From assembly GCA_019359495.1 (NCBI GenBank), contig JAHHHF010000091.1, positions 1 through 64,000 on the forward strand: DNA of 64,000 nt, given 5' to 3'. A model generated the notes under the pieces. The model saw only the letters and a list, made by a program, of their open reading frames with translations. It was not told where the DNA came from and made no database searches. Both the position numbers and the translations under genes were made by a program. Shown in pieces: positions 9,459 to 59,134 of this stretch; the stretch's first letter is position 1; every line of letters starts with the position of its first letter. This stretch comes from Goleter apudmare HA4340-LM2. Lineage in GTDB: Bacteria > Cyanobacteriota > Cyanobacteriia > Cyanobacteriales > Nostocaceae.

Positions 9459-10109
9459 CTACAAACCCTTTCCGGAATCAGAAACTTGCTGCTTCACCCA
9501 AGAACGAAAAACGCGAGTGGTGCTGATTTCTCCATTTTTTTTCGCCTCTTGGATAAACTGGGGAATCTCTCTCACTGCTATGGGTGTGAATGTAGGGCTA
9601 AGTTCAACTTCTAAGTATTGTCCATCATCCAGCGTGTAAATTCTTAACACACTACCGTTGTAGCGCCAAAATTCCGGGATTCCCATAGCAGCATAAAGCC
9701 TCAACTTATCTATCTTCGGTCTAGAGTATTCGACTTCTAGCACCAAATCAGGGGGTGGGTCAAATGCCAAATCTATGTTTTCTTTGCTTCTCACCAAAAA
9801 CTCATTTTGGATGTAGTAGCTACTATCTGGCTCACCCTCCTTTTCTAAATCATCCCGCGTTAATGTGAGAGAACCAGCCCGTTTAATCTCTAAACCAGAC
9901 TCTTCGCACAATACCCCAACAAAAGCCTCTATCAGACGATTTGAGTTTTCATGCGGCATGAGTGGGGTCATAATTTCTATGATTCCATTGTCATAAGCAA
10001 TTCTGTTTTTGCGTTCTGAACCCATCTCCGTTAGCATAGTTTTAAATGTCTGCCAACTGATGTTTTGTAGCAAGACTCTGGTTTCTGCGGGTGTTGTTGT
10101 CGTTACCAT
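9459..10109 (-). CDS. Uma2-family (DUF820) restriction-endonuclease-like protein (216 aa)
   Basis: Sequence and size typical of the abundant cyanobacterial Uma2/PD-(D/E)xK family (..DLVLEVEY.. core). Confidence 0.65.
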   Translation of the reverse strand: MVTTTTPAETRVLLQNISWQTFKTMLTEMGSERKNRIAYDNGIIEIMTPLMPHENSNRLIEAFVGVLCEESGLEIKRAGSLTLTRDDLEKEGEPDSSYYIQNEFLVRSKENIDLAFDPPPDLVLEVEYSRPKIDKLRLYAAMGIPEFWRYNGSVLRIYTLDDGQYLEVELSPTFTPIAVREIPQFIQEAKKNGEISTTRVFRSWVKQQVSDSGKGL

Positions 10110-14023: not shown

Positions 14024-14437
14024 ATGCTCCAAATCTCTCGTAAAATTATCATCCCCGATAGCGAAATCGAAATGAGCGCCATTCGTTCTCAAGGTGCAGG
14101 TGGTCAAAACGTTAACAAGGTTGCTACTGCCATTCACCTACGTTTTGACATTGAAGCTTCATCTTTACCCGCTTTCTATAAAGAGCAGCTTTTGAAGCTA
14201 AATGACCGCCGCATTACCCAAGAGGGAGTAGTTGTCATCAAAGCCCAAGAACACCGCAGCCAAGAACAGAACCGAGAAGAGGCTTTAGAACGACTCAAAG
14301 AACTTATTAAAAGCGCAGTCGTACTGAAGATAAAACGCAAACCTACCAAACCAACTCGTAGTTCTCAAAAAAAACGCCTTGACAGTAAAACCAAGCGAGG
14401 CCAGATTAAATCCGCGAGAAAACAGGTTATTGATTAA
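14024..14437 (+). CDS. arfB: Alternative ribosome-rescue factor B, peptidyl-tRNA hydrolase ArfB (137 aa)
   Basis: GGQ catalytic motif (SQGAGGQNVNKVATA) of class-I release-factor domain and a basic C-terminal tail (KRKPTKPTRSSQKKRLDSKTKRGQIKSARK) typical of ArfB/YaeJ. Confidence 0.75.
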   Translation: MLQISRKIIIPDSEIEMSAIRSQGAGGQNVNKVATAIHLRFDIEASSLPAFYKEQLLKLNDRRITQEGVVVIKAQEHRSQEQNREEALERLKELIKSAVVLKIKRKPTKPTRSSQKKRLDSKTKRGQIKSARKQVID

Positions 14438-14515: not shown

Positions 14516-17500
14516 GTTTCAATCCCTAATAGGGATTAGTTGGAATTGTAATTAGTGGTGGTAAGTCCTTCCCTGCCTAAAGTCTTGTTTCAATCCCTAA
14601 TAGGGATTAGTTGGAATTGCAATTTTATGGGTTTAGCTAATAGTATTAGGCTAAAAAATGTTTCAATCCCTAATAGGGATTAGTTGAAATTGCAATTCTC
14701 GCTCTGGCTGGAATAAAGCTTATAGCGAGTTGTTTCAATCCCTAATAGGGATTAGTTGAAATTGCAATTGAAGCCGAAGAGTATATCAAGGGCGATCGCG
14801 ACGTTTCAATCCCTAATAGGGATTAGTTGAAATTGCAATAATCGACGGGAAGTTACTTCTCTCGTTCAAGGGCATTGTTTCAATCCCTAATAGGGATTAG
14901 TTGAAATTGCAATTCCATTATCTTACGCTCGATTAAATGCTGTAAAGTTTCAATCCCTAATAGGGATTAGTTGAAATTGCAATAAGTCCTACCCTTACCC
15001 CATTCGCTAACATTAATGTTTCAATCCCTAATAGGGATTAGTTGAAATTGCAATTTAGTACCCTCCTCTTTGATTGCTACATATACAGTTTCAATCCCTA
15101 ATAGGGATTAGTTGAAATTGCAATACTAGTTCATCCCTAGTAGGTTCCCCATTTATATAGTTTCAATCCCTAATAGGGATTAGTTGAAATTGCAATATGT
15201 TCTCTGATTACCCTAAGAGGATTCTCTCCTCTTTTAAATGTTTCAATCCCTAATAGGGATTAGTTGAAATTGCAATGCGATTGCTGATTACAAAGAGGGT
15301 CTATTTGTACGTTTCAATCCCTAATAGGGATTAGTTGAAATTGCAATGTGCTCATCAGCCACTTTGCATACTCCCTTGCGTTTCAATCCCTAATAGGGAT
15401 TAGTTGAAATTGCAATAATGATGGTTCTGGTTTGTCTTATACGGTAATTCGTTTCAATCCCTAATAGGGATTAGTTGAAATTGCAATTTAGTAGAGAGCA
15501 TGAGGGGAGATATAGAAAATTAAGTTTCAATCCCTAATAGGGATTAGTTGAAATTGCAATATCTCACAGGATTTGCTCAACAAAATCATCACCCTCGTTT
15601 CAATCCCTAATAGGGATTAGTTGAAATTGCAATACGCCGGAAGCTACGGCTAGAAAGGTTTCCATAAATTTGTTTCAATCCCTAATAGGGATTAGTTGAA
15701 ATTGCAATGATACGCGTGAGTAGCGGTAGATCTATAATTCATGTTTCAATCCCTAATAGGGATTAGTTGAAATTGCAATTTTTTTGTTAACACCCTCTGG
15801 AAACTTTTAGAAAGGTAGTTTCAATCCCTAATAGGGATTAGTTGAAATTGCAATTCTTACAGTTAGCGGTCATTGCCCCGTGACGCCGAGTTTCAATCCC
15901 TAATAGGGATTAGTTGAAATTGCAATGCGTCTTGTTTCCATTGCCCTAGTTCATCTTGAGGTTTCAATCCCTAATAGGGATTAGTTGAAATTGCAATTTA
16001 AATAAAGTCTCTACAGAATTAGAAAAGAGAGGTTTCAATCCCTAATAGGGATTAGTTGAAATTGCAATTCTTACGCGAGTCCCAGCCAATAACTGGCACT
16101 GTGTTTCAATCCCTAATAGGGATTAGTTGAAATTGCAATGAAAAAACTCAAGGTGCAAGGCAATCTCAACGCGCTGTTTCAATCCCTAATAGGGATTAGT
16201 TGAAATTGCAATTTTAGTAGCACGTAATGTAATCAATGTGAAAGTGGCGTTTCAATCCCTAATAGGGATTAGTTGAAATTGCAATTGAAAAAATCACCGA
16301 GACAGAAAACAGAATTGATGTTTCAATCCCTAATAGGGATTAGTTGAAATTGCAATTAAGTTTCAAGTACAGGATGTCCGACTACTTCTCGGTTTCAATC
16401 CCTAATAGGGATTAGTTGAAATTGCAATTTACAAAAAAATGAGCTAGCCCATTAGTGTCGATTGTTTCAATCCCTAATAGGGATTAGTTGAAATTGCAAT
16501 TTAAAATAACTTGTGAGGTGTGGGGAATAACTTTAGTTTCAATCCCTAATAGGGATTAGTTGAAATTGCAATTTTTACATCACCTACGTACAGATACCCT
16601 TTGTTTGTTTCAATCCCTAATAGGGATTAGTTGAAATTGCAATTTCACTACTCTTTTTTAGTGAAATTTTTATTCTGGTTTCAATCCCTAATAGGGATTA
16701 GTTGAAATTGCAATTCAGGAGGCTTACTTGGGGAATAAACTCTTTACAGTTTCAATCCCTAATAGGGATTAGTTGAAATTGCAATTCTCTCTCTTAATAA
16801 CAAGAGAGAGAATAAGGACATGTTTCAATCCCTAATAGGGATTAGTTGAAATTGCAATTCAGGAACTTCCGGTTTAGATATGTAATTAGTTAAGTTTCAA
16901 TCCCTAATAGGGATTAGTTGAAATTGCAATTCCTTTAACATAATTCTTAGCTCTTGCTTTTAATTGTTTCAATCCCTAATAGGGATTAGTTGAAATTGCA
17001 ATTTTGCAGCCCAAGGATGAGAGCAAAAGAGTTCATGTTTCAATCCCTAATAGGGATTAGTTGAAATTGCAATTCCACTCTTTTATATAAGTAAACGCCT
17101 ATAATAAAGTTTCAATCCCTAATAGGGATTAGTTGAAATTGCAATTTTTATCCGTGCAATTGAAAAACAAGAAATAAACAAGTTTCAATCCCTAATAGGG
17201 ATTAGTTGAAATTGCAATTTTATAGGGCAAGGCTTTAGCGATAAGCGTCATGTGTTTCAATCCCTAATAGGGATTAGTTGAAATTGCAATTTTCTTCCCG
17301 AATACAGGGAAGAGCAGGAAACAAAAACGTTTCAATCCCTAATAGGGATTAGTTGAAATTGCAATTATCTCTGGCTATCTGTTCTACTAATTCGCTCTTG
17401 CGTTTCAATCCCTAATAGGGATTAGTTGAAATTGCAATTTTTATTTTATGTAAATAGAATAACTATTTAAACCAGCTGTTTCAATCCCTAATAGGGATTA

Positions 17501-17659
17501 GTTGAAATTGCAATTATGATAATGCTTGAAAGGTTCAGTGCAAATAATGAGTTTCAATCCCTAATAGGGATTAGTTGAAATTGCAATTTATCTACTTCAT
17601 CCTTTCTAGCGGAGTTTGTTTCGTTTCAATCCCTAATAGGGATTAGTTGAAATTGCAAT
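14516..17659 (-). CRISPR. CRISPR array: 44 x 37-bp repeat GTTTCAATCCCTAATAGGGATTAGTTGAAATTGCAAT (plus strand as written), 43 unique spacers of 34-37 bp
   Basis: Repeat starts counted directly (14516, 14587, 14660 ... 17551, 17623). The two left-most repeats are degenerate (..GGAATTGTAAT, ..GGAATTGCAAT). The repeat contains an internal hairpin (AATCCCT-AAT-AGGGATT). Its reverse complement ends ...GGGATTGAAAC, which gives the canonical ATTGAAAC 8-nt 5' handle after Cas6 cleavage. Transcription is therefore inferred on the minus strand. Confidence 0.95.
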
Positions 17660-17960
17660 TAGCGGGAGCCTGAAAGGCAGTAATTATGCGGTTTTCAAGG
17701 TGCGGTTGCGCGTATGAAAAAAGTATAACATGAGAAAATATAAATTGATTTACTGAGAATAGCTGAAACCCAGATGGGGTAAGGTGCGCGGATGATTTTA
17801 ATTTATTTTTCCGGCAAACCCTTGTGCTGTAGGGAATACAGCGATTATTCCTCAAGCCTAAATTTCTACACCTACCCATCCGCGCATTTGTCCAAGAAAA
17901 TGGTTTCATCATGGGGTTGTCTACTACCGATATACTGAAAGGTTTAATCCCCTTGAGGAG
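17660..17960 (-). promoter_or_regulatory. Putative CRISPR leader (AT-rich) with promoter for minus-strand array transcription
   Basis: AT-rich about 300 bp lies immediately adjacent to the non-degenerate end of the array. The opposite end has only 78 bp between the arfB stop and the first (degenerate) repeat. Confidence 0.4.
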
Positions 17961-18209: not shown

Positions 18210-19268
18210 TTAGGCTAGAGCCACAGCAGGTTCTGGCCAGCGTCCCACAGCCTTACCAATCACTGCTAATTCTGGCATCAAGCGATCAAAAGCATCTGGT
18301 GTGAGAGATTGCGGCCCATCTGATAGGGCTTTTTTCGGGTTGGGGTGAACCTCAATCATCAGAGAATCAGTACCAGCTGCGATCGCTGCCATTGCCATTG
18401 TCGGTACAAATTCCGACCAACCAGTGCCATGACTGGGATCAATCATAATTGGTAGGTGAGTCAGCTTGCGTAACACAGGCACCACCGATATATCCAGAGT
18501 ATTGCGAGTGTACTGGCGGTCAAAAGTGCGAATTCCCCGCTCACATAAAATCACGTTAGGATTGCCAGCCGCTAAAACATATTCAGCCGCCATCAACCAA
18601 TCTTCAATAGTAGCAGCCATTCCCCGCTTCAAGAGCACTGGTTTCGACTGCGCCCCGACTTTTTTCAGCAGAGAGAAATTTTGCATATTCCTCGCCCCCA
18701 CCTGGATGACATCGGCTACTTCGGCGATTCTATCCAGGTCTTCAGCATCCATCACTTCTGTGATTACGCCAAGTCCGCTAAGTTCTTTCGCCCTCGCCAA
18801 CAATTCCAAAGCACTGTCACCATGTCCTTGAAAGGCATAAGGCGAAGTCCGGGGTTTGTATGCACCTCCACGCAAAAACTTTGCACCAGCCGCCTTCACA
18901 CGGTGCGCTGTCTCCACAATCATTTCCTCGTTTTCTACCGAGCAGGGGCCAGCCACAACCACTAAGGGGTGGTGTTCTCCAAACACAACTGGCCCATCAG
19001 GAGTATCAACGACCACTTCCGAAGCTTCACCGTGGCGATACTGACGGCTCGCCCGTTTGTAGGGCAATTCTACCCGCAATACTTGTTCAATCCAAGGACT
19101 AATTTCCTGAATTTGTAGAGGGTCTAAATCGGCAGTTTCACCTACTAAACCAATTACGACCTTGTGCTTACCGACAATTTTTTCTGGTGTCAGTCCCCAG
19201 CTAGTTAGTTCCTCATCAATACGGTTGATTTCCGCTTCTGGGGAACCAATTTTCATTACTACGATCAT
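18210..19268 (-). CDS. 3-deoxy-7-phosphoheptulonate (DAHP) synthase, type I-beta with N-terminal regulatory domain (352 aa)
   Basis: KDSA/DAHP-synthase core motifs (GPCSVE, KPRTSPY.FQG, RGMAATIEDW...) preceded by an about 90-aa ferredoxin-like regulatory domain. Confidence 0.85.
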   Translation of the reverse strand: MIVVMKIGSPEAEINRIDEELTSWGLTPEKIVGKHKVVIGLVGETADLDPLQIQEISPWIEQVLRVELPYKRASRQYRHGEASEVVVDTPDGPVVFGEHHPLVVVAGPCSVENEEMIVETAHRVKAAGAKFLRGGAYKPRTSPYAFQGHGDSALELLARAKELSGLGVITEVMDAEDLDRIAEVADVIQVGARNMQNFSLLKKVGAQSKPVLLKRGMAATIEDWLMAAEYVLAAGNPNVILCERGIRTFDRQYTRNTLDISVVPVLRKLTHLPIMIDPSHGTGWSEFVPTMAMAAIAAGTDSLMIEVHPNPKKALSDGPQSLTPDAFDRLMPELAVIGKAVGRWPEPAVALA

Positions 19269-41542: not shown

Positions 41543-41703
41543 TGCTGCTGAACGCTCCTAACAAATAGGGCGACCCGGAGACTACGCCTACCACAAGCAT
41601 CCCGTATTGCTGCTACCTTCCGGTCCTGACAAAGTTTAGGCGTTGCAGTCGCATAGATCCAGGTCTAAATATCAGCATAACATCAAAAATCAGTAATGGA
41701 GTA

Positions 41704-41970: not shown

Positions 41971-42290
41971 GTACTTGTGACCTCATGCATTATCTATGCG
42001 ATCGTAAATATATTTTTGATTGTCATTTGTTATTTGTTATTTGTCATTTGTTAAAAGGCAATAGGCAAGATTGAAGACGTTTCCCCAATGCCCCATAGCC
42101 CTGGCCGCCACTTGCTAGAAGTCGGGAAACCCGCCCACGGCGCTGTCTCCCCAAAGCAGTGGCTTGGCTACACAGACGAAACCCACCTCCGTGGGTTTGA
42201 AAGTCCTAATTTTTGGTTAGTCCGTGCAGGCGGACTTTGTTTGTGTAGTAGCGAATTATATTCGCCCAAAACTTTTCAAACATACTCTTA

Positions 42291-42470
42291 AGCCTTTAGA
42301 TGACGGCATTAAGCCTTTAGGTGACGATATTAAGCCTTTAGATGACGGCATTAAGCCTTTAGATGACGGCATTAAGCCTTTAGATGACGGCATTAAGCCT
42401 TTAGATGACGGCATTAAGCCTTTAGATGACGATATTAAGCCTTTAGATGACGGCATTAAGCCTTTTAGTT
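42291..42470. repeat. 21-bp tandem repeat, about 8.5 copies (TTAAGCCTTTAGATGACGGCA consensus)
   Basis: Directly visible. Two copies have point variants (ggtgacgata, gatgacgata). Creates an artefactual ORF encoding (DDGIKPL)n. Confidence 0.9.
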
Positions 42471-48807: not shown

Positions 48808-49380
48808 AGAGGATGTTTGAAAAGTCTAAATTAATACTAGCCTTGGCGATTAGAAATCGCGGCTACACAGACAAAACCCACCTCCGTGGGTTTGAAAGGC
48901 CTAATTTTTATTTATAGCGGTTTTCAGACGAGTGAAGTACAGTTTTAAATTGCAAAACCCGTAGGGGCGGGGTCTCCCCGCCCTTGATTGTGTTGCGTTC
49001 AACCGAGAAAGGCTATAGTCCGCGCAGGCGGACTTTGTTTGTGTAGTAGCGAATTATATTCGCCCAAAACTTTTCAAACATCCTCTAAAAAGTTGCATAA
49101 GTAGAGGAAGTGCCGCGCAATGTCTAATCGCGCTATCTAGCAACATAGTCCACGCCGAGATTAATCTCGGCGTGGAAAGAAAAAAATATTATTCAGCAGT
49201 CACAGCTTGGAAAATAACTAGGTAACGTGTAAAAGTCACACCACGCGAACTTGACTAACTTAATTTACTGAGTAACCGTCACCCACATCACCAGACGCAA
49301 TTAAATACATGTCCAACAGCCACCAGGAACGCAGTCTTCACACCAAACCATAGTGCAATCTGCTAGTTTTATTTGCGGTT
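48808..49380. repeat. About 570-bp segment duplicated nearly identically at 50155-50727 (copy A)
   Basis: Direct read-through comparison: identical over most positions, including the gctacacagacaaaacccacctccgtgggtttgaaag... MITE core and the 3' ends of both small Cys-rich genes. Confidence 0.85.
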
Positions 49381-49774
49381 TTTGAATTTCTTCCAACCAT
49401 TTTTTAACTTGCTGACTCTCATCACTAATACGAGGTTGAGTTTTAATGATGTCTAATATCTCTTGAAATTGCACAGCGCTATCTTCTGCATCATACTTAT
49501 CAAATACTTTGGCAATCTGAGATTGCTTCAAGCTCTCAAAAATCTGGCGAATATCACTCTCGCTACCAGTTTCTTGATAGTTAACTTTTAAGTCTAGATA
49601 ATCTTGCTTAATTTCACGAGCATACCGTTCATAAATTGGCACCGACACATTTGCTGCTGCACCATTGATAATTCTAGCTTGAGCAGTGGCTGTAAAAATC
49701 GAACCAATTGCAACAGCAGCCGTTGCTACTGAAGTAGTAACTAAACGACTCCAAATGGTAGTTGAAACGCTCAT
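49301..49774 (-). CDS. Secreted small protein with Cys-rich C-terminus CTMVWCEDCVPGGCWTCI (157 aa), paralog 1
   Basis: N-terminal signal peptide (..ATAQA). C-terminal 35 aa nearly identical to the ORF at 50648-51007. No family recognised. Confidence 0.5.
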   Translation of the reverse strand: MSVSTTIWSRLVTTSVATAAVAIGSIFTATAQARIINGAAANVSVPIYERYAREIKQDYLDLKVNYQETGSESDIRQIFESLKQSQIAKVFDKYDAEDSAVQFQEILDIIKTQPRISDESQQVKKWLEEIQKPQIKLADCTMVWCEDCVPGGCWTCI

Positions 49775-50154: not shown

Positions 50155-50727
50155 TAAGAGGGTGTTTGAAAAGTCTAAATTAATACTAGCCTTGGCGATT
50201 AGAAATCGCGGCTACACAGACAAAACCCACCTCCGTGGGTTTGAAAGGCCTAATTTTTATTTATAGCGGTTTTCAGACGAGTGAAGTACAGTTTTAAATT
50301 GCAAAACCCGTAGGGGCGGGGTCTCCCCGCCCTTGATTGTGTTGCGTTCAACCGAGAAAGGCTATAGTCCGCGCAGGCGGACTTTGTTTGTGTAGTAGCG
50401 AATTATATTCGCCCAAAACTTTTCAAACATCCTCTAAAAAGTTGCACAAGTAGAGGAAGTGCCGCGCAATGTCTAATCGCTATTTAGCAATATAGTCCAC
50501 GCAGAGATTAATCTCTGCGTGGAAAGAAAAAAATATTATTCAGCAGTCACAGCTTGGAAAATAACTAGGTAACGTGTAAAGCTCACACCACGCGAACTTG
50601 GCTAACTTAATTTACTGAGTAACCGTCACCCACATCACCAAACCCAATTAAATACATATCCAAGTGCCATCAGGAGCGCACTCTTGACACCAAACCATAG
50701 TGCAATCTGCTAATTTGATTGGTGGTT
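50155..50727. repeat. Copy B of the about 570-bp duplicated segment
   Basis: See copy A. Period between copies is about 1347 bp. A third occurrence of the boundary motif (gaggatgtttgaaaagtc) is at 51236. Confidence 0.85.
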
Positions 50728-51007
50728 TTTGAATGCCTGCCAACAATCCCTGGCCTTCCTGACTCTCATCAGCACCACTCGGTTGAAGTTTGCTCATGTC
50801 AAGAGTATATTCCCATTTGACAGCGTTATCAGGTATCCCATACTTAGTAAGTACAGGGCCGATGCTAGATGTCTTCAAAGCTTCGTTAATTGCCAGTCTA
50901 ATATCTTCCTCAAACTGCTTGAGTGTTTCAGAATCCATAACTGTGTCCTTGTTTACAAATTGTTGGTTCAGTAAATCTAACTTGTGATTTACTAATTTAT
51001 TCATCAC
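50648..51007 (-). CDS. Small protein with Cys-rich C-terminus CTMVWCQECAPDGTWICI (119 aa), paralog 2, no signal peptide
   Basis: Homologous to 49301-49774 across most of its length (KY..D.AV.....LD; QP..DESQ; IQKP.IKLADCTMVWC), but lacks the N-terminal signal peptide. Confidence 0.45.
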   Translation of the reverse strand: MMNKLVNHKLDLLNQQFVNKDTVMDSETLKQFEEDIRLAINEALKTSSIGPVLTKYGIPDNAVKWEYTLDMSKLQPSGADESQEGQGLLAGIQKPPIKLADCTMVWCQECAPDGTWICI

Positions 51008-51532
51008 CTCGGTTTCTACCAGTTCCGGATTCCGTCACAAAAATTTCTGCGGTAATCCCGTAACCTGATCAATACCAGCAGCCTACGGCGATTCTCAAAA
51101 AGTCTTTTGCACAAAGGAAAATCTGAACTTAACATCATTGGTAAATTCTTCCCCATGACGCCACTTGCTACAAGTCTGGCGAAGGAACGCAGGGCTGCCT
51201 CCATGCCCTTGTGGATGGAGTTTTTGATCTAGCTCAGAGGATGTTTGAAAAGTCCTCTTGTCGGTATCAAAAGTTTTAGATCCCTCTAAATCTACGCCAC
51301 TTGCTACAACGGGGAGGCAGCCGTGTGGGCGGGTTTCCCGACTTGTAGACGCCCTCCGGGCGGCTACTCTACGAGAACGCTTTCAGCGAACCCGCAGGGT
51401 ACGGACTGCCGTGGGAACCCCCGAAGTTTGCCGAACATCTCCCCGGCAACTTCTCTCCGCAACGCAGTGGCTCCCCTTAAAAAGCAGGGTTAGGTTTTAG
51501 AGTTGCGTCACAGGCTTTTGCTGGGAGCATCC

Positions 51533-53506: not shown

Positions 53507-54391
53507 TCATTGGTTAAGATTTCTAATAACTTCTACATCTAACTCAAATATCTCAGCCACTTCTTGTATACTCATTCCTCGTTGCAGCAGTTTTTTGATC
53601 ATTTCTTCTTTAACTTCCTGCTTAACTTCTTCTTTAACTTCCTGCTTAACTTCTTCTTTAACTTCCTGCTTAACTTCTTCTTTAACTTCCTGCTTAACTT
53701 CTTCTTTAACTTCCTGCTTAACTTCTTCCCTGGCTTCCTCTTTCAACTCTTGATATACTCTCGTACCCCTAATTAATTCTAGACTTAACATTTCTTTTAT
53801 CTCCTCTCTGCTCAAATTGGGAAACTTATTAACAAGAATAGCTTCTATTAATTCTAAAATTTTTCTTTGGATGGCGGCATCACTTACTTCCAGTCTTGCT
53901 TGATTAACTAGTTGTCTAACTGATTCTTTGGCTTTTTGCTTGCCTTCAACAATTAGTTTAATGATTCTTAATCCTAATGATTGGCTTGATGCGTCTTCCA
54001 TTTCATCAAGATAGAAGCAGCGTAGGTGCGGTGATTTCAAAGAATTAAGACGCTGAGGAAAGTCTACATCATTTGTACGCTCATCAAATATTACTATAGC
54101 ATACCAGGCAGAATTAGATGGTTGATATTGATAGAAGTAAAGCAGAATACTTGTTAAAAATCTGTCGTAAAAAAGTTTATCTTTGTAACATTGAACTTCT
54201 ACAAAATAAATTGGTTCGTTCGGCGAACTTTTTAAAGTTGAAAATATACCATCTAAGCGGAAGCTAGTTTCCTTAACTTCTTGGCTTTGAAATTCATAAA
54301 GATTGGGATTAGTCTCTGGTTTACCAATCAGTTCAAAAAAGATATTAGGAAATTCTTGAAAGAGTTTATAAAAAATCGTGTCTGTTTTCAT
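53507..54391 (-). CDS. Rpn-family recombination-promoting nuclease / PD-(D/E)xK putative transposase (about 294 aa) with internal (EEVKQEVK) repeat
   Basis: N-terminus KTDTIFYKLFQEFPNIFFELIG is the hallmark of cyanobacterial Rpn/YhgA-like proteins. C-terminal DUF4351-like tail. Seven in-frame copies of a 24-bp repeat at 53590-53745. Confidence 0.7.
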   Translation of the reverse strand: MKTDTIFYKLFQEFPNIFFELIGKPETNPNLYEFQSQEVKETSFRLDGIFSTLKSSPNEPIYFVEVQCYKDKLFYDRFLTSILLYFYQYQPSNSAWYAIVIFDERTNDVDFPQRLNSLKSPHLRCFYLDEMEDASSQSLGLRIIKLIVEGKQKAKESVRQLVNQARLEVSDAAIQRKILELIEAILVNKFPNLSREEIKEMLSLELIRGTRVYQELKEEAREEVKQEVKEEVKQEVKEEVKQEVKEEVKQEVKEEVKQEVKEEMIKKLLQRGMSIQEVAEIFELDVEVIRNLNQ

Positions 54392-54435
54392 GGAATTAGG
54401 GAATAGGGCATGTCTCATCTCTCTCCTGTATCTTC

Positions 54436-55332
54436 TCACTCTTTGCGTTCAGCTATTCTTAACTTGGCTGAACGCGATCGCGCATTGTTGACAATTTCTT
54501 CATCTTGTGCAGTAATTGGTTTTTTCGTCAACACTCGCAATAAGGGCGAATTTCTTAAACCATGTTTTACTAGTCGGTCTTCCAAACTATGAAAACTGAT
54601 AATGGCGATTTTACCACCGGGGACAAGGGCATTTGGTGCTTGCTCTATCAGAGTTTCTAGGGACTTTAACTCGTCGTTGACGACAATTCGCAGGGCTTGA
54701 AAAACACGAGTAGCCGGGTGAATTCTCCCATAACGGTATTTAGGAGGAACAGCAGAAGCGATCGCCTCTGCTAACGCTACAGTTGTAAGCAAGGGTCGTC
54801 TTTCAACTATCCTTCTAGCAATGCGCCGCGATAGTCTCTCTTCGCCGTACTTAAAGAAAATATCTGCTAACTCCCCTTCATCCCACTCATTAATCACATC
54901 AGCAGCAGTCAGGGATTGACGTTGATCCATTCGCATATCTAGATTAGCTGCGTGGCGAAAGCTAAAACCCCGTTCCGGCGTATCGAGATGGTAAGAACTC
55001 ACCCCCAAATCGGCAATAATTCCATCGAAAGTACTAGGCGGAAACTTGTAAGTGGCGAAATTACTATGGACAAATTGCACACGTTCCCCATACTCAGCTA
55101 AATACTTCTGGGCGGCTATTAAAGCATCCTCATCTTGGTCAATGGCTGTTAAATAAACATTCTCAGCCGCTTCTAAAATTAAGCGACTGTGTCCACCGCC
55201 GCCTACTGTCGCATCTAAATAATGTCCGCCGGGATGCACCGCCAAATCCTCAATCACCTCCCGACGCAACACGGGAATATGGGAAAAAGTAGATGCTTCT
55301 AAATTAAATGGTGTCTGGGAATCTGATTTCAT
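54436..55332 (-). CDS. rsmH: 16S rRNA (cytosine1402-N4)-methyltransferase RsmH/MraW (about 298 aa)
   Basis: Sequence [13 protein letters not shown]...[15 protein letters not shown] (SAM-binding) and conserved C-terminal region. The ORF runs further upstream to 55608 through a repeat element; start chosen at MKSDSQ. Confidence 0.85.
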
Positions 55333-57257: not shown

Positions 57258-58331
57258 TCAATCAAATTTTAAAACTGATACAGCTAGTTCAATATTTAAA
57301 CTTAAATATTTATCTAAGGGTATGTACATCCAATGCAAAGGTAGTAGTGGGTCTTGGTTGGTTTTTTGAAACCCTAGGGCTGATACTAACTGTTCATCAC
57401 CTGGATGCATGACTAAGGTATACATATCGCAAAGATTAGGAAAATCAGCTTGCATCCGCACTAATGTTTTTTTTGCATCTTGTAAGAATTCACAAACATT
57501 AATTTGCTGTTTATAGGCTAAGTCAATCTGCCAACTGCGGATAAAAATAGAAGTACAATGGCGATCGCCTGGTATCGCAATTTGTAAGGGGTCATTGTCC
57601 CAGGTGGCGCTGAGGTGAAGACTGTGGCGCGGCGGGAGAAAGAAATTTGCTTCTGATTCCCTAGATACAGGATACAAAATGTAAAAACCCACAGCATCCT
57701 GAGTATCATAGCGACGCAGTACCCGCATCCCAGTGGGATATTGCTGTGCCCAACCACGGATGATTCTGGCAATTCTTTGGGGTAAGGCAATAGTTTTTTT
57801 ATTCATCCAGTTGTAGTTGCGAGCGAGAAAACTGGCAACAGGGATGGCGTCAATGCGGGGATTAAAGTTATCTGCTACAAGCTTTATCGACTTTTCAACT
57901 GGTTCTGAGTTATGGAGATTTGGCAATAAAGACCGAATCCGAATACAGGTAGTATTGCCATCAAAATCTTTTTCAATTAATCCCAACGCTACGAACTTAT
58001 CAATCATCATACCCGCAGAGCGATCGCTCCCCCGGTCTTGATCACCATAGAAAATTTCTTGCGCTTCTCGATGGGTACACGCAATAAACCCCTCTGGTAA
58101 CTCTAGTTGAGTTAAAGGTTGCTGTAAGGGCTTCCCCAGTTCTTGCTGTTGTTTCAGCAGCAAATAAGCCCATAACTTCACAAAATACTCAGACCGACGG
58201 CGCGTTAAACCAACCCGCCCTTGCAACTGAGAAACATATTTACGCTGTTGCTGAACTGGGAACCACTGGTCAATGTTTCCTGGATTCATACGGTAGGACT
58301 CCTGGCGGGTGTTCCAACCTTGTGGCTGCAC
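57258..58331 (-). CDS. Hypothetical protein (357 aa), divergent from a LuxR-type regulator gene
   Basis: Long ORF with good coding appearance. No motif recognised. Confidence 0.45.
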   Translation of the reverse strand: MQPQGWNTRQESYRMNPGNIDQWFPVQQQRKYVSQLQGRVGLTRRRSEYFVKLWAYLLLKQQQELGKPLQQPLTQLELPEGFIACTHREAQEIFYGDQDRGSDRSAGMMIDKFVALGLIEKDFDGNTTCIRIRSLLPNLHNSEPVEKSIKLVADNFNPRIDAIPVASFLARNYNWMNKKTIALPQRIARIIRGWAQQYPTGMRVLRRYDTQDAVGFYILYPVSRESEANFFLPPRHSLHLSATWDNDPLQIAIPGDRHCTSIFIRSWQIDLAYKQQINVCEFLQDAKKTLVRMQADFPNLCDMYTLVMHPGDEQLVSALGFQKTNQDPLLPLHWMYIPLDKYLSLNIELAVSVLKFD

Positions 58332-58537
58332 CCTTGATGCTAGTTACATACTTAACTTCAAAGAAACTTCACCCTACTTCTGGTAGATTCCGCAAACCTG
58401 CATTGACCAGGTTTAACTTCAGATCTGTTACCAAGCTAGCAGCCCACTCATTGGATCTACATAGTCTCAACCATCAAAATTCAGCCAAACACCTGATTGA
58501 TTTTGCTTTTCATGCTGAATTTTGGAGGAATTCTACA

Positions 58538-59134
58538 ATGTTACTTTCAGATGTCAAGAAAGATTCTAACTTTGCATCTATACCCACTCACACATTACAG
58601 CCTGATTTACTACGGTCTGTAATTGCCAGTTTTATTGATGGTATCTTAATATTGACAATTGAATGTGAGTTAATTCATGCTAATAGATATGCCCATGACA
58701 TTTGTCATCAATTAATTTCAAAAAACACTACTAGTAATGTAGTTCCCGATGAAATTTGGTGTGTTTGTCAATCATTAATGGAGAGTCGTGAGTTATTTAC
58801 TGTCGAATCTGAAGTTACCACAAAACAGGGGATGAAATTCCGGATTCGTGCTAGATGGTTACAATTGGGTGGAGATAATTATGACTTATTGTTAGTGACT
58901 GTAGAAGATTACAATCAATATACTCAAAGTTTGGCGATCGCCGATGCGAAGAAGTACCATTTAACAGACCGCGAAACGCAAGTTTGGCTATTGCGTCGAG
59001 CTAATTACTCTTATCAAGAGATTGCCACTCGACTTTACATTACCATCAATACTGTCAAAAAGCATTTGCAAAATATTTACGCCAAGCAACGAAGTTTATT
59101 TTGTCCAAATTCCTATGGAGAAATGCCAAATTAA
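58538..59134 (+). CDS. LuxR-family (HTH_LuxR) transcriptional regulator (about 198 aa)
   Basis: C-terminal LTDRETQVWLLRRANYSYQEIATRLYITINTVKKHLQNIYAK. Start at ATG 58538, preceded by GGAGG. Confidence 0.6.
   Translation: MLLSDVKKDSNFASIPTHTLQPDLLRSVIASFIDGILILTIECELIHANRYAHDICHQLISKNTTSNVVPDEIWCVCQSLMESRELFTVESEVTTKQGMKFRIRARWLQLGGDNYDLLLVTVEDYNQYTQSLAIADAKKYHLTDRETQVWLLRRANYSYQEIATRLYITINTVKKHLQNIYAKQRSLFCPNSYGEMPN

What the first reader, a model, noticed from the sequence alone, without database searches (positions are those of the whole stretch)
14516..17659. Large orphan CRISPR array (44 repeats) with no cas gene anywhere in 64 kb
The array is wedged between arfB and a DAHP-synthase gene, both housekeeping. 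Every other ORF in the window has a non-Cas assignment or is too small to be a Cas effector. The repeat (revcomp ATTGCAATTTCAACTAATCCCTATTAGGGATTGAAAC) has the stem-loop plus ATTGAAAC handle expected for Cas6-processed class 1 (type I-D / type III-like) repeats of cyanobacteria. The array is therefore presumably serviced in trans by a distant cas locus. Alternatively it is a relic. Forty-three distinct spacers, with degeneracy confined to the two left-most repeats, suggest it was actively acquiring at the right-hand (leader) end.
Basis: partly seen in the sequence, partly recalled or inferred. Interest (0 to 1): 0.7.

Follow-up and report, generated by a model that had tools for sequence, protein, structure and literature searches.

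The report
Cas-less type I-D CRISPR array
This is a real 44-repeat CRISPR array in a Nostocales cyanobacterium that has lost its own cas genes, apart from a 20-codon cas2 stub, and is most likely served by a complete type I-D cas cassette elsewhere in the same genome, an arrangement already well documented in filamentous cyanobacteria.

Summary
There are 44 copies of a 37-nt repeat and 43 unique spacers at 14516-17659, and only the two left-most repeats are degenerate. All 44 repeats match Rfam CRISPR-DR5 on the minus strand. No intact cas gene lies in the 64 kb. The window comes from the MAG Goleter apudmare HA4340-LM2. The identical repeat sits directly beside type I-D cas genes in two other Nostocales genomes. 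Goleter itself carries a complete type I-D cassette with its own 54-repeat array on another contig. That array's repeat shares the 3' 22 nt (hairpin plus ATTGAAAC handle) with the orphan repeat, and its leader is homologous. Two new details emerged. A 60-nt cas2 3' remnant abuts the leader (17872-17931), so the array was once cas-linked. The 21 leader-proximal units carry one extra base, which records at least 20 acquisitions at the leader end. No spacer target was found. Remote processing of such orphan arrays by type I-D Cas6 has been shown experimentally in Anabaena 7120. This is an ordinary new member of a known kind, and expression and processing remain untested.

The parts
14516..17659 (-). 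CRISPR array with 44 repeats of 37 nt (crRNA sense ATTGCAATTTCAACTAATCCCTATTAGGGATTGAAAC) and 43 unique spacers
   Evidence: exact coordinates; Rfam RF01318, all 44 on the minus strand; 8-bp hairpin, -8.7 kcal/mol
14516..14623 (-). Leader-distal, oldest end of the array, holding the only two degenerate repeats (2 and 1 mismatches)
16176..17660 (-). The 21 leader-proximal units. Each repeat is preceded in crRNA sense by an extra A, giving an effective 38-nt repeat. The leader's last base (17660) is the same extra A.
   Evidence: 20 consecutive newest spacers end in A (P about 1e-10). The invariant leader block lies 31 nt from the repeat here, against 30 nt in 7 of 8 other leaders.
17660..17871 (-). 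Leader. It is homologous to the leaders of eight other arrays of this repeat family, including Goleter's own cas-linked array.
   Evidence: 72-73% identity to L002/L003/L006/L007; 53% overall and 66% over the last 60 columns to L010
17722..17730 (-). Candidate extended -10 promoter element TGTTATACT, 62 nt upstream of the first repeat
   Evidence: the -10-like hexamer is kept at this alignment position in most of the nine leaders, with the upstream TG in six. This is an inference, because the sigma-70 consensus scan did not call it.
17691..17701 (-). Leader block ACCTTGAAAAC, invariant in all nine leaders; a candidate anchoring motif for integration
17872..17931 (-). cas2 3' remnant encoding IGSRQPHDETIFLDKCADG plus stop, compared with Trichormus Cas2 IGGEQPRDETIFFAECADG plus stop
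   Evidence: 13 of 19 residues identical, stop codon at the homologous position, tblastn E = 4.9e-5 against the whole window, and the next best hit has E = 0.39
14024..14437 (+). arfB-type peptidyl-tRNA hydrolase (RF-1 domain), convergent with the distal end of the array
18210..19268 (-). DAHP synthase, on the same strand as the array and upstream of it, 278 nt from the cas2 remnant

Best explanation
This is a type I-D CRISPR array of Goleter apudmare HA4340-LM2 that was once directly linked to a cas4-cas1-cas2 module and lost that operon by deletion or rearrangement. Only the last 20 codons of cas2 remain. It most likely still works as a remote array. It would be transcribed on the minus strand from a promoter in its own conserved leader. 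The pre-crRNA would be cut 8 nt from each repeat's 3' end by the Cas6d encoded in the complete type I-D cassette on another contig. The resulting crRNAs, with 5' handle AUUGAAAC, would be loaded into that cassette's Cas10d-Csc2-Csc1 complex for DNA interference together with Cas3. New spacers entered at the leader end.

Shown: the array and its orientation, the leader homology, the cas2 remnant, the type I-D identity of the repeat, the presence of an intact type I-D cassette in the same culture, and the identity of hairpin and handle between the two repeat variants.

Inferred: transcription, Cas6d cleavage, loading, interference, and whether the last acquisitions happened in trans.
For: - Array integrity: 42 of 44 repeats are identical and degeneracy is confined to the leader-distal end.
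- Repeat family: Rfam CRISPR-DR5 on the minus strand.
- Type I-D identity: the identical 37-nt repeat lies immediately beside type I-D genes in L002 and L001, with Cas1d TIGR04093 at 446 and 413 bits against a cut-off of 385, and Csc1 TIGR03159.
- Same organism: the window proteins and Cas6 P0042 are both annotated as Goleter apudmare HA4340-LM2, and the culture is unialgal.
- Cassette intact: L010 holds full-length Cas3d, Cas10d, Csc2, Csc1, 2OG, Cas6d, Cas4, Cas1 and Cas2, plus an array of at least 54 repeats.
- Compatible repeats: the two Goleter repeats share the 3' 22 nt exactly. Across about 45 type I-D loci whose Cas6d is 62-100% identical, only CCC-N5-GGGATTGAAAC is constant and the 5' part varies freely.
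- Leader: it is homologous to that of the cas-linked array, with the invariant ACCTTGAAAAC block at the same spacing.
- Leader-end growth: a 38-nt unit signature is present in the 21 newest units.
- Precedent: in Anabaena 7120, cas-free arrays are transcribed and processed by the remote type I-D Cas6, Alr1566 (10.1101/2020.04.14.041012).
Against: - Nothing about expression or processing could be tested.
- The orphan repeat differs from the cas-linked repeat at 8 of its 15 5' positions. That is the leader-proximal half an integrase must recognise, so adaptation in trans is uncertain.
- The orphan leader is only 53% identical to the cas-linked leader overall (66% over the last 60 columns).
- The consensus promoter scan did not call a promoter in the leader.
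- No spacer matches any phage, plasmid or viral contig searched, so activity against real targets is undocumented.
- The cas2 remnant shows that the array's own operon is gone, as expected for a decaying locus too.
- The genome is a MAG, so other cas loci may be unsampled.
Confidence: 0.72

Rival explanations
1. The array is a dead relic. After its cas operon was lost it is no longer transcribed, processed or extended, and it persists only because too little time has passed for it to decay.
For: - A cas2 remnant shows the cognate operon was deleted.
- No cas gene lies within 64 kb.
- The repeat's 5' half differs from that of the only cas-linked array seen in the genome.
- No spacer has a detectable target.
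Against: - 42 of 44 repeats are perfectly identical over 3.1 kb, and the leader keeps every block that is invariant in the nine arrays.
- An intact type I-D cassette with the same hairpin and handle is present in the genome.
- In Anabaena 7120 the equivalent orphan arrays are expressed and processed, and the authors explicitly disfavour non-functionality.
Confidence: 0.12
2. The array is functional but is served mainly by a different system not seen here. That could be a type III system (III-D or III-B) with its own Cas6, or a second type I-D locus with the identical repeat on an unsampled part of the genome.
For: - In Anabaena 7120 the type III-D Cas6, Alr1482, also cleaves the type I-D-group repeats, and many Nostocales carry both Cas6 types.
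- The exact repeat is cas-linked in other genomes.
- The MAG may be incomplete, and the remaining roughly 42 kb of the window's own contig could not be read.
Against: - The cas2 remnant indicates that this array was itself the one attached to the variant-repeat cassette, which is gone.
- The genome scan for the exact repeat found no other Goleter locus, although it is unverified that the MAG is in that collection.
- Only one Goleter Cas6d appeared among the top 120 homologues.
- No type III gene was seen in any sequence examined.
Confidence: 0.15
3. It is not a CRISPR array but some other tandem repeat or an assembly artefact.
For: None found.
Against: - Regular 69-80 nt spacing with unique spacers.
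- A curated Rfam CRISPR family match for all 44 units.
- The same repeat and leader lie next to cas genes elsewhere.
- An independent Logan assembly of the same run reproduces the DAHP synthase-leader junction.
Confidence: 0.01

Closest known systems
Group 2 (type I-D) orphan repeat-spacer arrays of Anabaena sp. PCC 7120 (Reimann et al. 2020, 10.1101/2020.04.14.041012; Hou et al. 2019 as cited there)
   Same: Both are cas-free arrays in a Nostocales genome that also carries a type I-D cassette elsewhere. Both have hairpin repeats of the type I-D kind. There, the arrays were shown to be transcribed and processed in trans by the type I-D Cas6, Alr1566. The authors describe array fragmentation as typical of multicellular cyanobacteria.
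   Different: Nothing has been tested experimentally for Goleter. Here a cas2 stub directly documents how the array became orphaned, and a 1-nt unit shift records leader-end growth. I did not see either feature described in the sections of that paper that I read.
cas-linked type I-D array of Trichormus sp. M33_DOE_039 (L002 = L018) and of a Calothrix MAG (L001)
   Same: The 37-nt repeat is identical, the leader is homologous (72% for L002), and the strand arrangement cas2-leader-array is the same. The Cas2 C-terminus matches the window remnant at 13 of 19 residues.
   Different: Those arrays keep cas5d-2OG-cas6d-cas4-cas1-cas2 next to the leader, whereas the window keeps only the last 20 codons of cas2.
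Goleter apudmare's own cas-linked type I-D array (L010, contig JAESGB010000057.1)
   Same: Same organism. The 3' 22 nt of the repeat (stem AATCCC/GGGATT, loop, handle ATTGAAAC) are identical. The leader is homologous, with ACCTTGAAAAC 30 nt from the repeat. Spacer lengths are similar (34-36 nt).
   Different: 8 of the 15 5' repeat positions differ. Leader identity is only 53%. No spacers are shared.
Rfam CRISPR-DR5 (RF01318)
   Same: All 44 repeats match the full 37-position model above the gathering score, on the minus strand.
   Different: Rfam assigns a repeat family only; it says nothing about cas type or function.
cas-free mini-arrays of Nostoc cyanophages N-1 and YongM
   Same: The repeats are related: 96% over 26 nt for N-1 and 86% over 36 nt for YongM. 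The N-1 repeat is cleaved by host Cas6 enzymes, another case of arrays that rely on Cas proteins encoded elsewhere.
   Different: Those arrays are phage-borne with only a few spacers, whereas this one is chromosomal with 43 spacers.

Membership tests
CRISPR array | Near-identical direct repeats of about 23-47 nt, regularly interspaced by unique spacers of similar length | tested here: met
   44 repeats of 37 nt and 43 unique spacers of 32-43 nt
CRISPR array | Repeat matches a curated CRISPR repeat family | tested here: met
   RF01318 CRISPR-DR5, 50 bits against a gathering score of 40, for all 44 units
CRISPR array | A leader at one end, with degenerate repeats at the opposite end | tested here: met
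   The leader at 17660-17871 is conserved in nine arrays. The only degenerate repeats are the two at the far end.
Type I-D CRISPR-Cas array | The repeat is the one used by type I-D cassettes (adjacent to cas10d, csc2, csc1, cas6d, cas1d) | tested here: met
   The identical repeat lies beside type I-D genes in L002 and L001. Its 3' module CCC-N5-GGGATTGAAAC is constant in about 45 type I-D loci.
Type I-D CRISPR-Cas array | Type I-D cas genes adjacent to the array | tested here: not met
   There is no intact cas gene in 64 kb, only a cas2 3' remnant. A complete type I-D cassette is on another contig of the same organism.
Type I-D CRISPR-Cas array | Transcription of the array and Cas6d cleavage giving crRNAs with an 8-nt 5' handle | not testable with these tools
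   Only the hairpin prediction and the precedent in Anabaena 7120 are available.
Type I-D CRISPR-Cas array | Spacers match mobile elements next to a type I-D PAM (GTN, from my own knowledge of Synechocystis I-D) | tested here: inconclusive
   No protospacer was found in phages, plasmids, four IMG/VR scans, the window or 93 loci, so the PAM could not be assessed.
Orphan (cas-remote) arrays of Nostocales | A cas-free array coexisting with a cas cassette of matching repeat class elsewhere in the genome | tested here: met
   The same pattern appears in Nostoc sp. FACHB-280 (three arrays) and Anabaena azotica SJ-1 (two arrays), with no cas genes in the 4-6 kb of leader-side flank held.
Type III-associated array | Linkage to, or use by, a cas10/csm/cmr effector | not tested
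   No type III gene was seen in any sequence examined. The rest of the MAG could not be searched.

The most novel reading that the evidence does not exclude
The array may preserve a natural experiment on type I-D adaptation. A 1-nt insertion at the leader-repeat junction was followed by at least 20 integrations, each duplicating a 38-nt unit. That would mean the integrase places its leader-side cut by measuring 30 nt from the invariant leader block ACCTTGAAAAC, rather than by reading the repeat's first bases. If those integrations came after loss of the adjacent cas operon, a cas-less array whose repeat 5' half differs at 8 of 15 positions kept acquiring spacers through the Cas1-Cas2-Cas4 of another locus.
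Probability: 0.25. Interest if true: 0.45.

Novelty: new member of a known kind. Interest (0 to 1): 0.2.

Why it matters
It mainly matters as a clean, well-documented example. It shows one route by which the many orphan arrays of filamentous cyanobacteria arise: loss of the adjacent cas operon with a break inside cas2. It also shows why such arrays can stay useful, since the hairpin and handle are shared with a surviving type I-D cassette. Annotators should assign this array to the type I-D system of the genome rather than treat it as unclassified. The 1-nt unit shift offers a small, testable hint about how type I-D integration sites are measured. None of this changes current understanding of CRISPR biology.

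Tried and rejected
- **Spacer targets.** All 43 spacers, concatenated, were run by blastn against 50,697 phage records and 72,556 plasmids, with no match at E up to 1. The PAM-proximal 24-mers of four of the six newest spacers had no match in IMG/VR. blastn-short against the rest of the window and all fetched loci gave only chance matches of 13-18 nt, so there is no self-targeting and no spacer sharing.
- **Literature search by repeat sequence.** No paper holds it.
- **Promoter scan.** The consensus scan called no site in the leader, only spurious sites inside the array and fewer than in shuffles. The -10 element is proposed from conservation alone.
- **Exact look-ups.** The look-up of the Goleter Cas6 (P0042) and of the window's last gene found nothing. 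The source contig beyond the window could not be read, so the other roughly 42 kb of that contig remain unchecked.
- **Synteny.** Calothrix PCC 7507 and Nostoc PCC 7524 keep rpsO-pam68-DAHP synthase but have other genes and no array beyond it, so the position is lineage-specific.
- **cas remnants beside other cas-free arrays** (Nostoc FACHB-280, Anabaena azotica): none found.
- **The 89-aa ORF at 17643-17912**, which overlaps the leader, has no family hit and is treated as spurious.
- **The type III reading** could not be tested, because I had no query sequence and no access to the rest of the MAG.
Full report
**Observation.**
A pattern search finds 44 copies of the 37-nt repeat GTTTCAATCCCTAATAGGGATTAGTTGAAATTGCAAT on the + strand between 14516 and 17659. 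42 copies are identical. Repeat 1 has two mismatches and repeat 2 has one, and both are at the left end. The 43 spacers are 32-43 nt long, mostly 34-36, and none is duplicated. Rfam assigns all 44 units to CRISPR-DR5 (RF01318) at 50 bits against a gathering score of 40, on the minus strand. In RNA sense the repeat is ATTGCAATTTCAACTAATCCCTATTAGGGATTGAAAC. It folds into an 8-bp hairpin (-8.7 kcal/mol) followed by the tail of the ATTGAAAC handle.

**Is the window free of cas genes?**
I built a non-overlapping ORF set and scanned all 59 ORFs of at least 76 aa against Pfam. I then scanned ten ORFs, eight of them without a Pfam hit, against PADLOC and NCBIfam.
- No Cas protein was found. The only hit to a Cas-named model, CARF3--CARF, covers just the C-terminal HTH region of the GerE-type regulator at 58322-59134.
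- The flanks are an RF-1-domain protein of arfB type (14024-14437, +) and DAHP synthase (18210-19268, -).
- tblastn with all 12 proteins of the Goleter type I-D cassette against the whole window gave a single meaningful hit. On the minus strand, 17931->17872 encodes IGSRQPHDETIFLDKCADG-stop, compared with IGGEQPRDETIFFAECADG-stop at the C-terminus of Trichormus Cas2. That is 13 of 19 identical residues with the stop codon at the homologous position, E = 4.9e-5 against the whole window, and the next best hit has E = 0.39.
- Similarity ends about 17932, and an in-frame stop lies four codons upstream.

So there is no functional cas gene in the window. A cas2 stub abuts the leader, which means the array was once directly linked to an adaptation module.

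**Source.**
Exact look-up shows that the window's proteins are those of the MAG Goleter apudmare HA4340-LM2, on a 106.6-kb contig. arfB and DAHP synthase have consecutive accessions (MBW4645810 and MBW4645811). The data come from run SRR11676930 of a unialgal, non-axenic culture isolated from a Hawaiian cave wall (PMC8354539). An independent Logan assembly of that run reproduces the DAHP synthase side of the junction.

**What type of array is it?**
A scan of species-representative genomes for the exact repeat found eight stretches, in a Calothrix MAG, Trichormus sp. M33_DOE_039, Nostoc sp. FACHB-280 (three arrays) and Anabaena azotica SJ-1 (two arrays).
- In Trichormus the array and leader are immediately preceded by cas2, cas1, cas4, cas6, a 2OG gene and csc1. 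In the Calothrix MAG they are preceded by cas4, cas1 and cas2.
- Cas1 passes the NCBIfam type I-D exception model (TIGR04093, 446 and 413 bits against a cut-off of 385). Csc1 passes TIGR03159. PADLOC calls Cas6d, Cas4d, Cas2d and Cas5d.
- The repeat is therefore a type I-D repeat.
- The Nostoc and Anabaena arrays have no cas genes in the 4-6 kb of leader-side flank held and no cas remnants. Cas-free copies of this array type are thus common.

**A cas locus in the same genome.**
Searching with the Trichormus Cas6d returned P0042, annotated as Cas6 of Goleter apudmare HA4340-LM2, 83% identical and on a 124.8-kb contig. A similarity scan recovered that contig (JAESGB010000057.1, locus L010) at 100% identity.
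- L010 encodes full-length Cas3d, Cas10d, Csc2/Cas7d, Csc1/Cas5d, 2OG, Cas6d, Cas4, Cas1 and Cas2. Each covers essentially the whole PADLOC model.
- These genes are followed by a leader and an array of at least 54 repeats.
- That array's repeat is GTTAAAATTCATCCAAATCCCTATTAGGGATTGAAAC. It shares the 3' 22 nt (stem, loop and 8-nt handle) with the orphan repeat, and differs at 8 of the 15 5' positions.
- Across about 45 type I-D loci whose Cas6d is 62-100% identical to Goleter's, the cas-adjacent repeat always ends in CCC-N5-GGGATTGAAAC, while the 5' 15-17 nt vary freely. The two Goleter repeats differ only in the part that varies across the family, so processing by the same Cas6d and loading into the same complex are plausible.

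**Leader.**
The 212 nt between the cas2 stop and the first repeat align with the leaders of all eight other arrays examined, including Goleter's cas-linked one.
- Identity is 72-73% to the Trichormus and Nostoc leaders. To L010 it is 53% overall and 66% over the last 60 columns.
- Invariant blocks include GGTGT, ACCTTGAAAAC (window 17701->17691) and a -10-like element with an upstream TG (TGTTATACT, 17730->17722).
- The upstream invariant block TGCGCGGATGGGTAG corresponds to the last codons of cas2 in Trichormus.
- The simple sigma-70 scan did not call a promoter in the leader, so the promoter rests on conservation only.

**A record of growth at the leader end.**
In RNA sense the 20 leader-proximal spacers all end in A, whereas older spacers vary. 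With 32% A in the spacers, the chance of such a run is about 1e-10. The leader itself ends in an extra A: ACCTTGAAAAC lies 31 nt from the repeat here, but 30 nt away in seven of the eight other leaders. The newest 21 units therefore behave as a 38-nt repeat. The simplest reading is a 1-nt change at the leader-repeat junction, followed by at least 20 integrations that each duplicated the 38-nt unit. This supports polarised acquisition in this very array. It does not say whether those events came before or after the cas operon was lost.

**Spacers.**
No target was found in phage records, plasmids, four IMG/VR scans, the window or any fetched locus, and no spacer is shared with other arrays. Spacer GC content is 37.7% against 42.8% for the window, which fits a foreign origin but proves nothing.

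**Context in the literature.**
Reimann et al. (10.1101/2020.04.14.041012) state that multiple cas-free arrays are typical of multicellular cyanobacteria. In Anabaena 7120 they show that seven orphan arrays are expressed and matured by the Cas6 of a distant type III-D or type I-D cassette, and they conclude that the arrays are probably functional and that arrays fragment frequently. They also report that the type III-D Cas6 can cut type I-D-group repeats. For that reason a type III contribution in Goleter cannot be excluded.

**Verdict.**
It is a new example of a known arrangement, not a new kind of system.
- The most likely mechanism is trans use by the type I-D cassette on JAESGB010000057.1 (confidence about 0.7).
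- The rivals are a relic (about 0.12) and another servicing system (about 0.15).
- The two added details are the cas2 stub that documents how the array was orphaned, and the 1-nt unit shift that records leader-end growth. They are modestly interesting and testable.

Noticed in passing
window 14697-14731, 16786-16821, 17291-17328 (spacers 3, 32, 39 counted from the left): Three spacers contain strong internal hairpins (-11.5 to -14.1 kcal/mol). As a set, the 43 spacers fold better than mononucleotide shuffles (mean -3.76 against -2.84 kcal/mol, z = -3.6). They may derive from terminator-like or palindromic regions of the invaders.
   Followed up: partly
window 41569-41665 (-): Bacterial small SRP RNA (RF00169, 59.6 bits).
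   Followed up: no
window 42288-42465 (+): 8.5 copies of a 21-nt tandem repeat (93% matches). It lies inside an 82-aa ORF that reads as DDGIKPL heptapeptide repeats. Nearby, 42119-42164 matches Nostoc FACHB-280 locus L006:4139-4184 at 98% over 46 nt, with a weaker copy at window 51311-51345, which suggests a short dispersed element.
   Followed up: partly
window 49301-49774 (-) and 50648-51007 (-): Two paralogous small ORFs with no family hit share a cysteine-rich C-terminus (KLADCTMVWCEDCVPGGCWTCI and KLADCTMVWCQECAPDGTWICI). They look like possible peptide-precursor genes.
   Followed up: no
window 9459-10109 (-): A 216-aa ORF with no listed Pfam hit (it shared a pseudo-protein with a WD40 protein whose matches filled the 25-row list) matches the PADLOC candidate defence family PDC-S17 (E = 4e-36).
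   Followed up: no
window 53507-54439 (-): An Rpn-family recombination-promoting nuclease/putative transposase (TIGR01784, DUF2887) with an EEVKQEVK repeat tract.
   Followed up: no
L003:4469-4747 and L006:1787-2068 (Nostoc sp. FACHB-280): A conserved 92-93-aa ORF with no family hit lies just beyond the leader of two different cas-free arrays in the same genome.
   Followed up: no
L010:3304-4238 (Goleter type I-D cassette): Three small ORFs (80, 103 and 127 aa) sit between cas3d and cas10d. By size and arrangement they may be a toxin-antitoxin-like insert. They were not scanned against any family library.
   Followed up: no
phage records MT426122.1 (Nostoc phage YongM, 62764-62799) and KU234532.1 (Nostoc phage N1, 16849-16874): Repeat-like sequences related to the orphan repeat occur in Nostoc phages, at 86% over 36 nt and 96% over 26 nt. 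The N-1 mini-array is known; the YongM match lies in a gene annotated as a hypothetical protein.
   Followed up: no
L004 (Anabaena azotica SJ-1): One of this genome's two cas-free arrays uses mainly a 2-nt variant of the repeat (ATTGCAATTTCTCCTAATCCC...), with only two exact copies. Its leader has diverged more (58% identity to the window leader).
   Followed up: no
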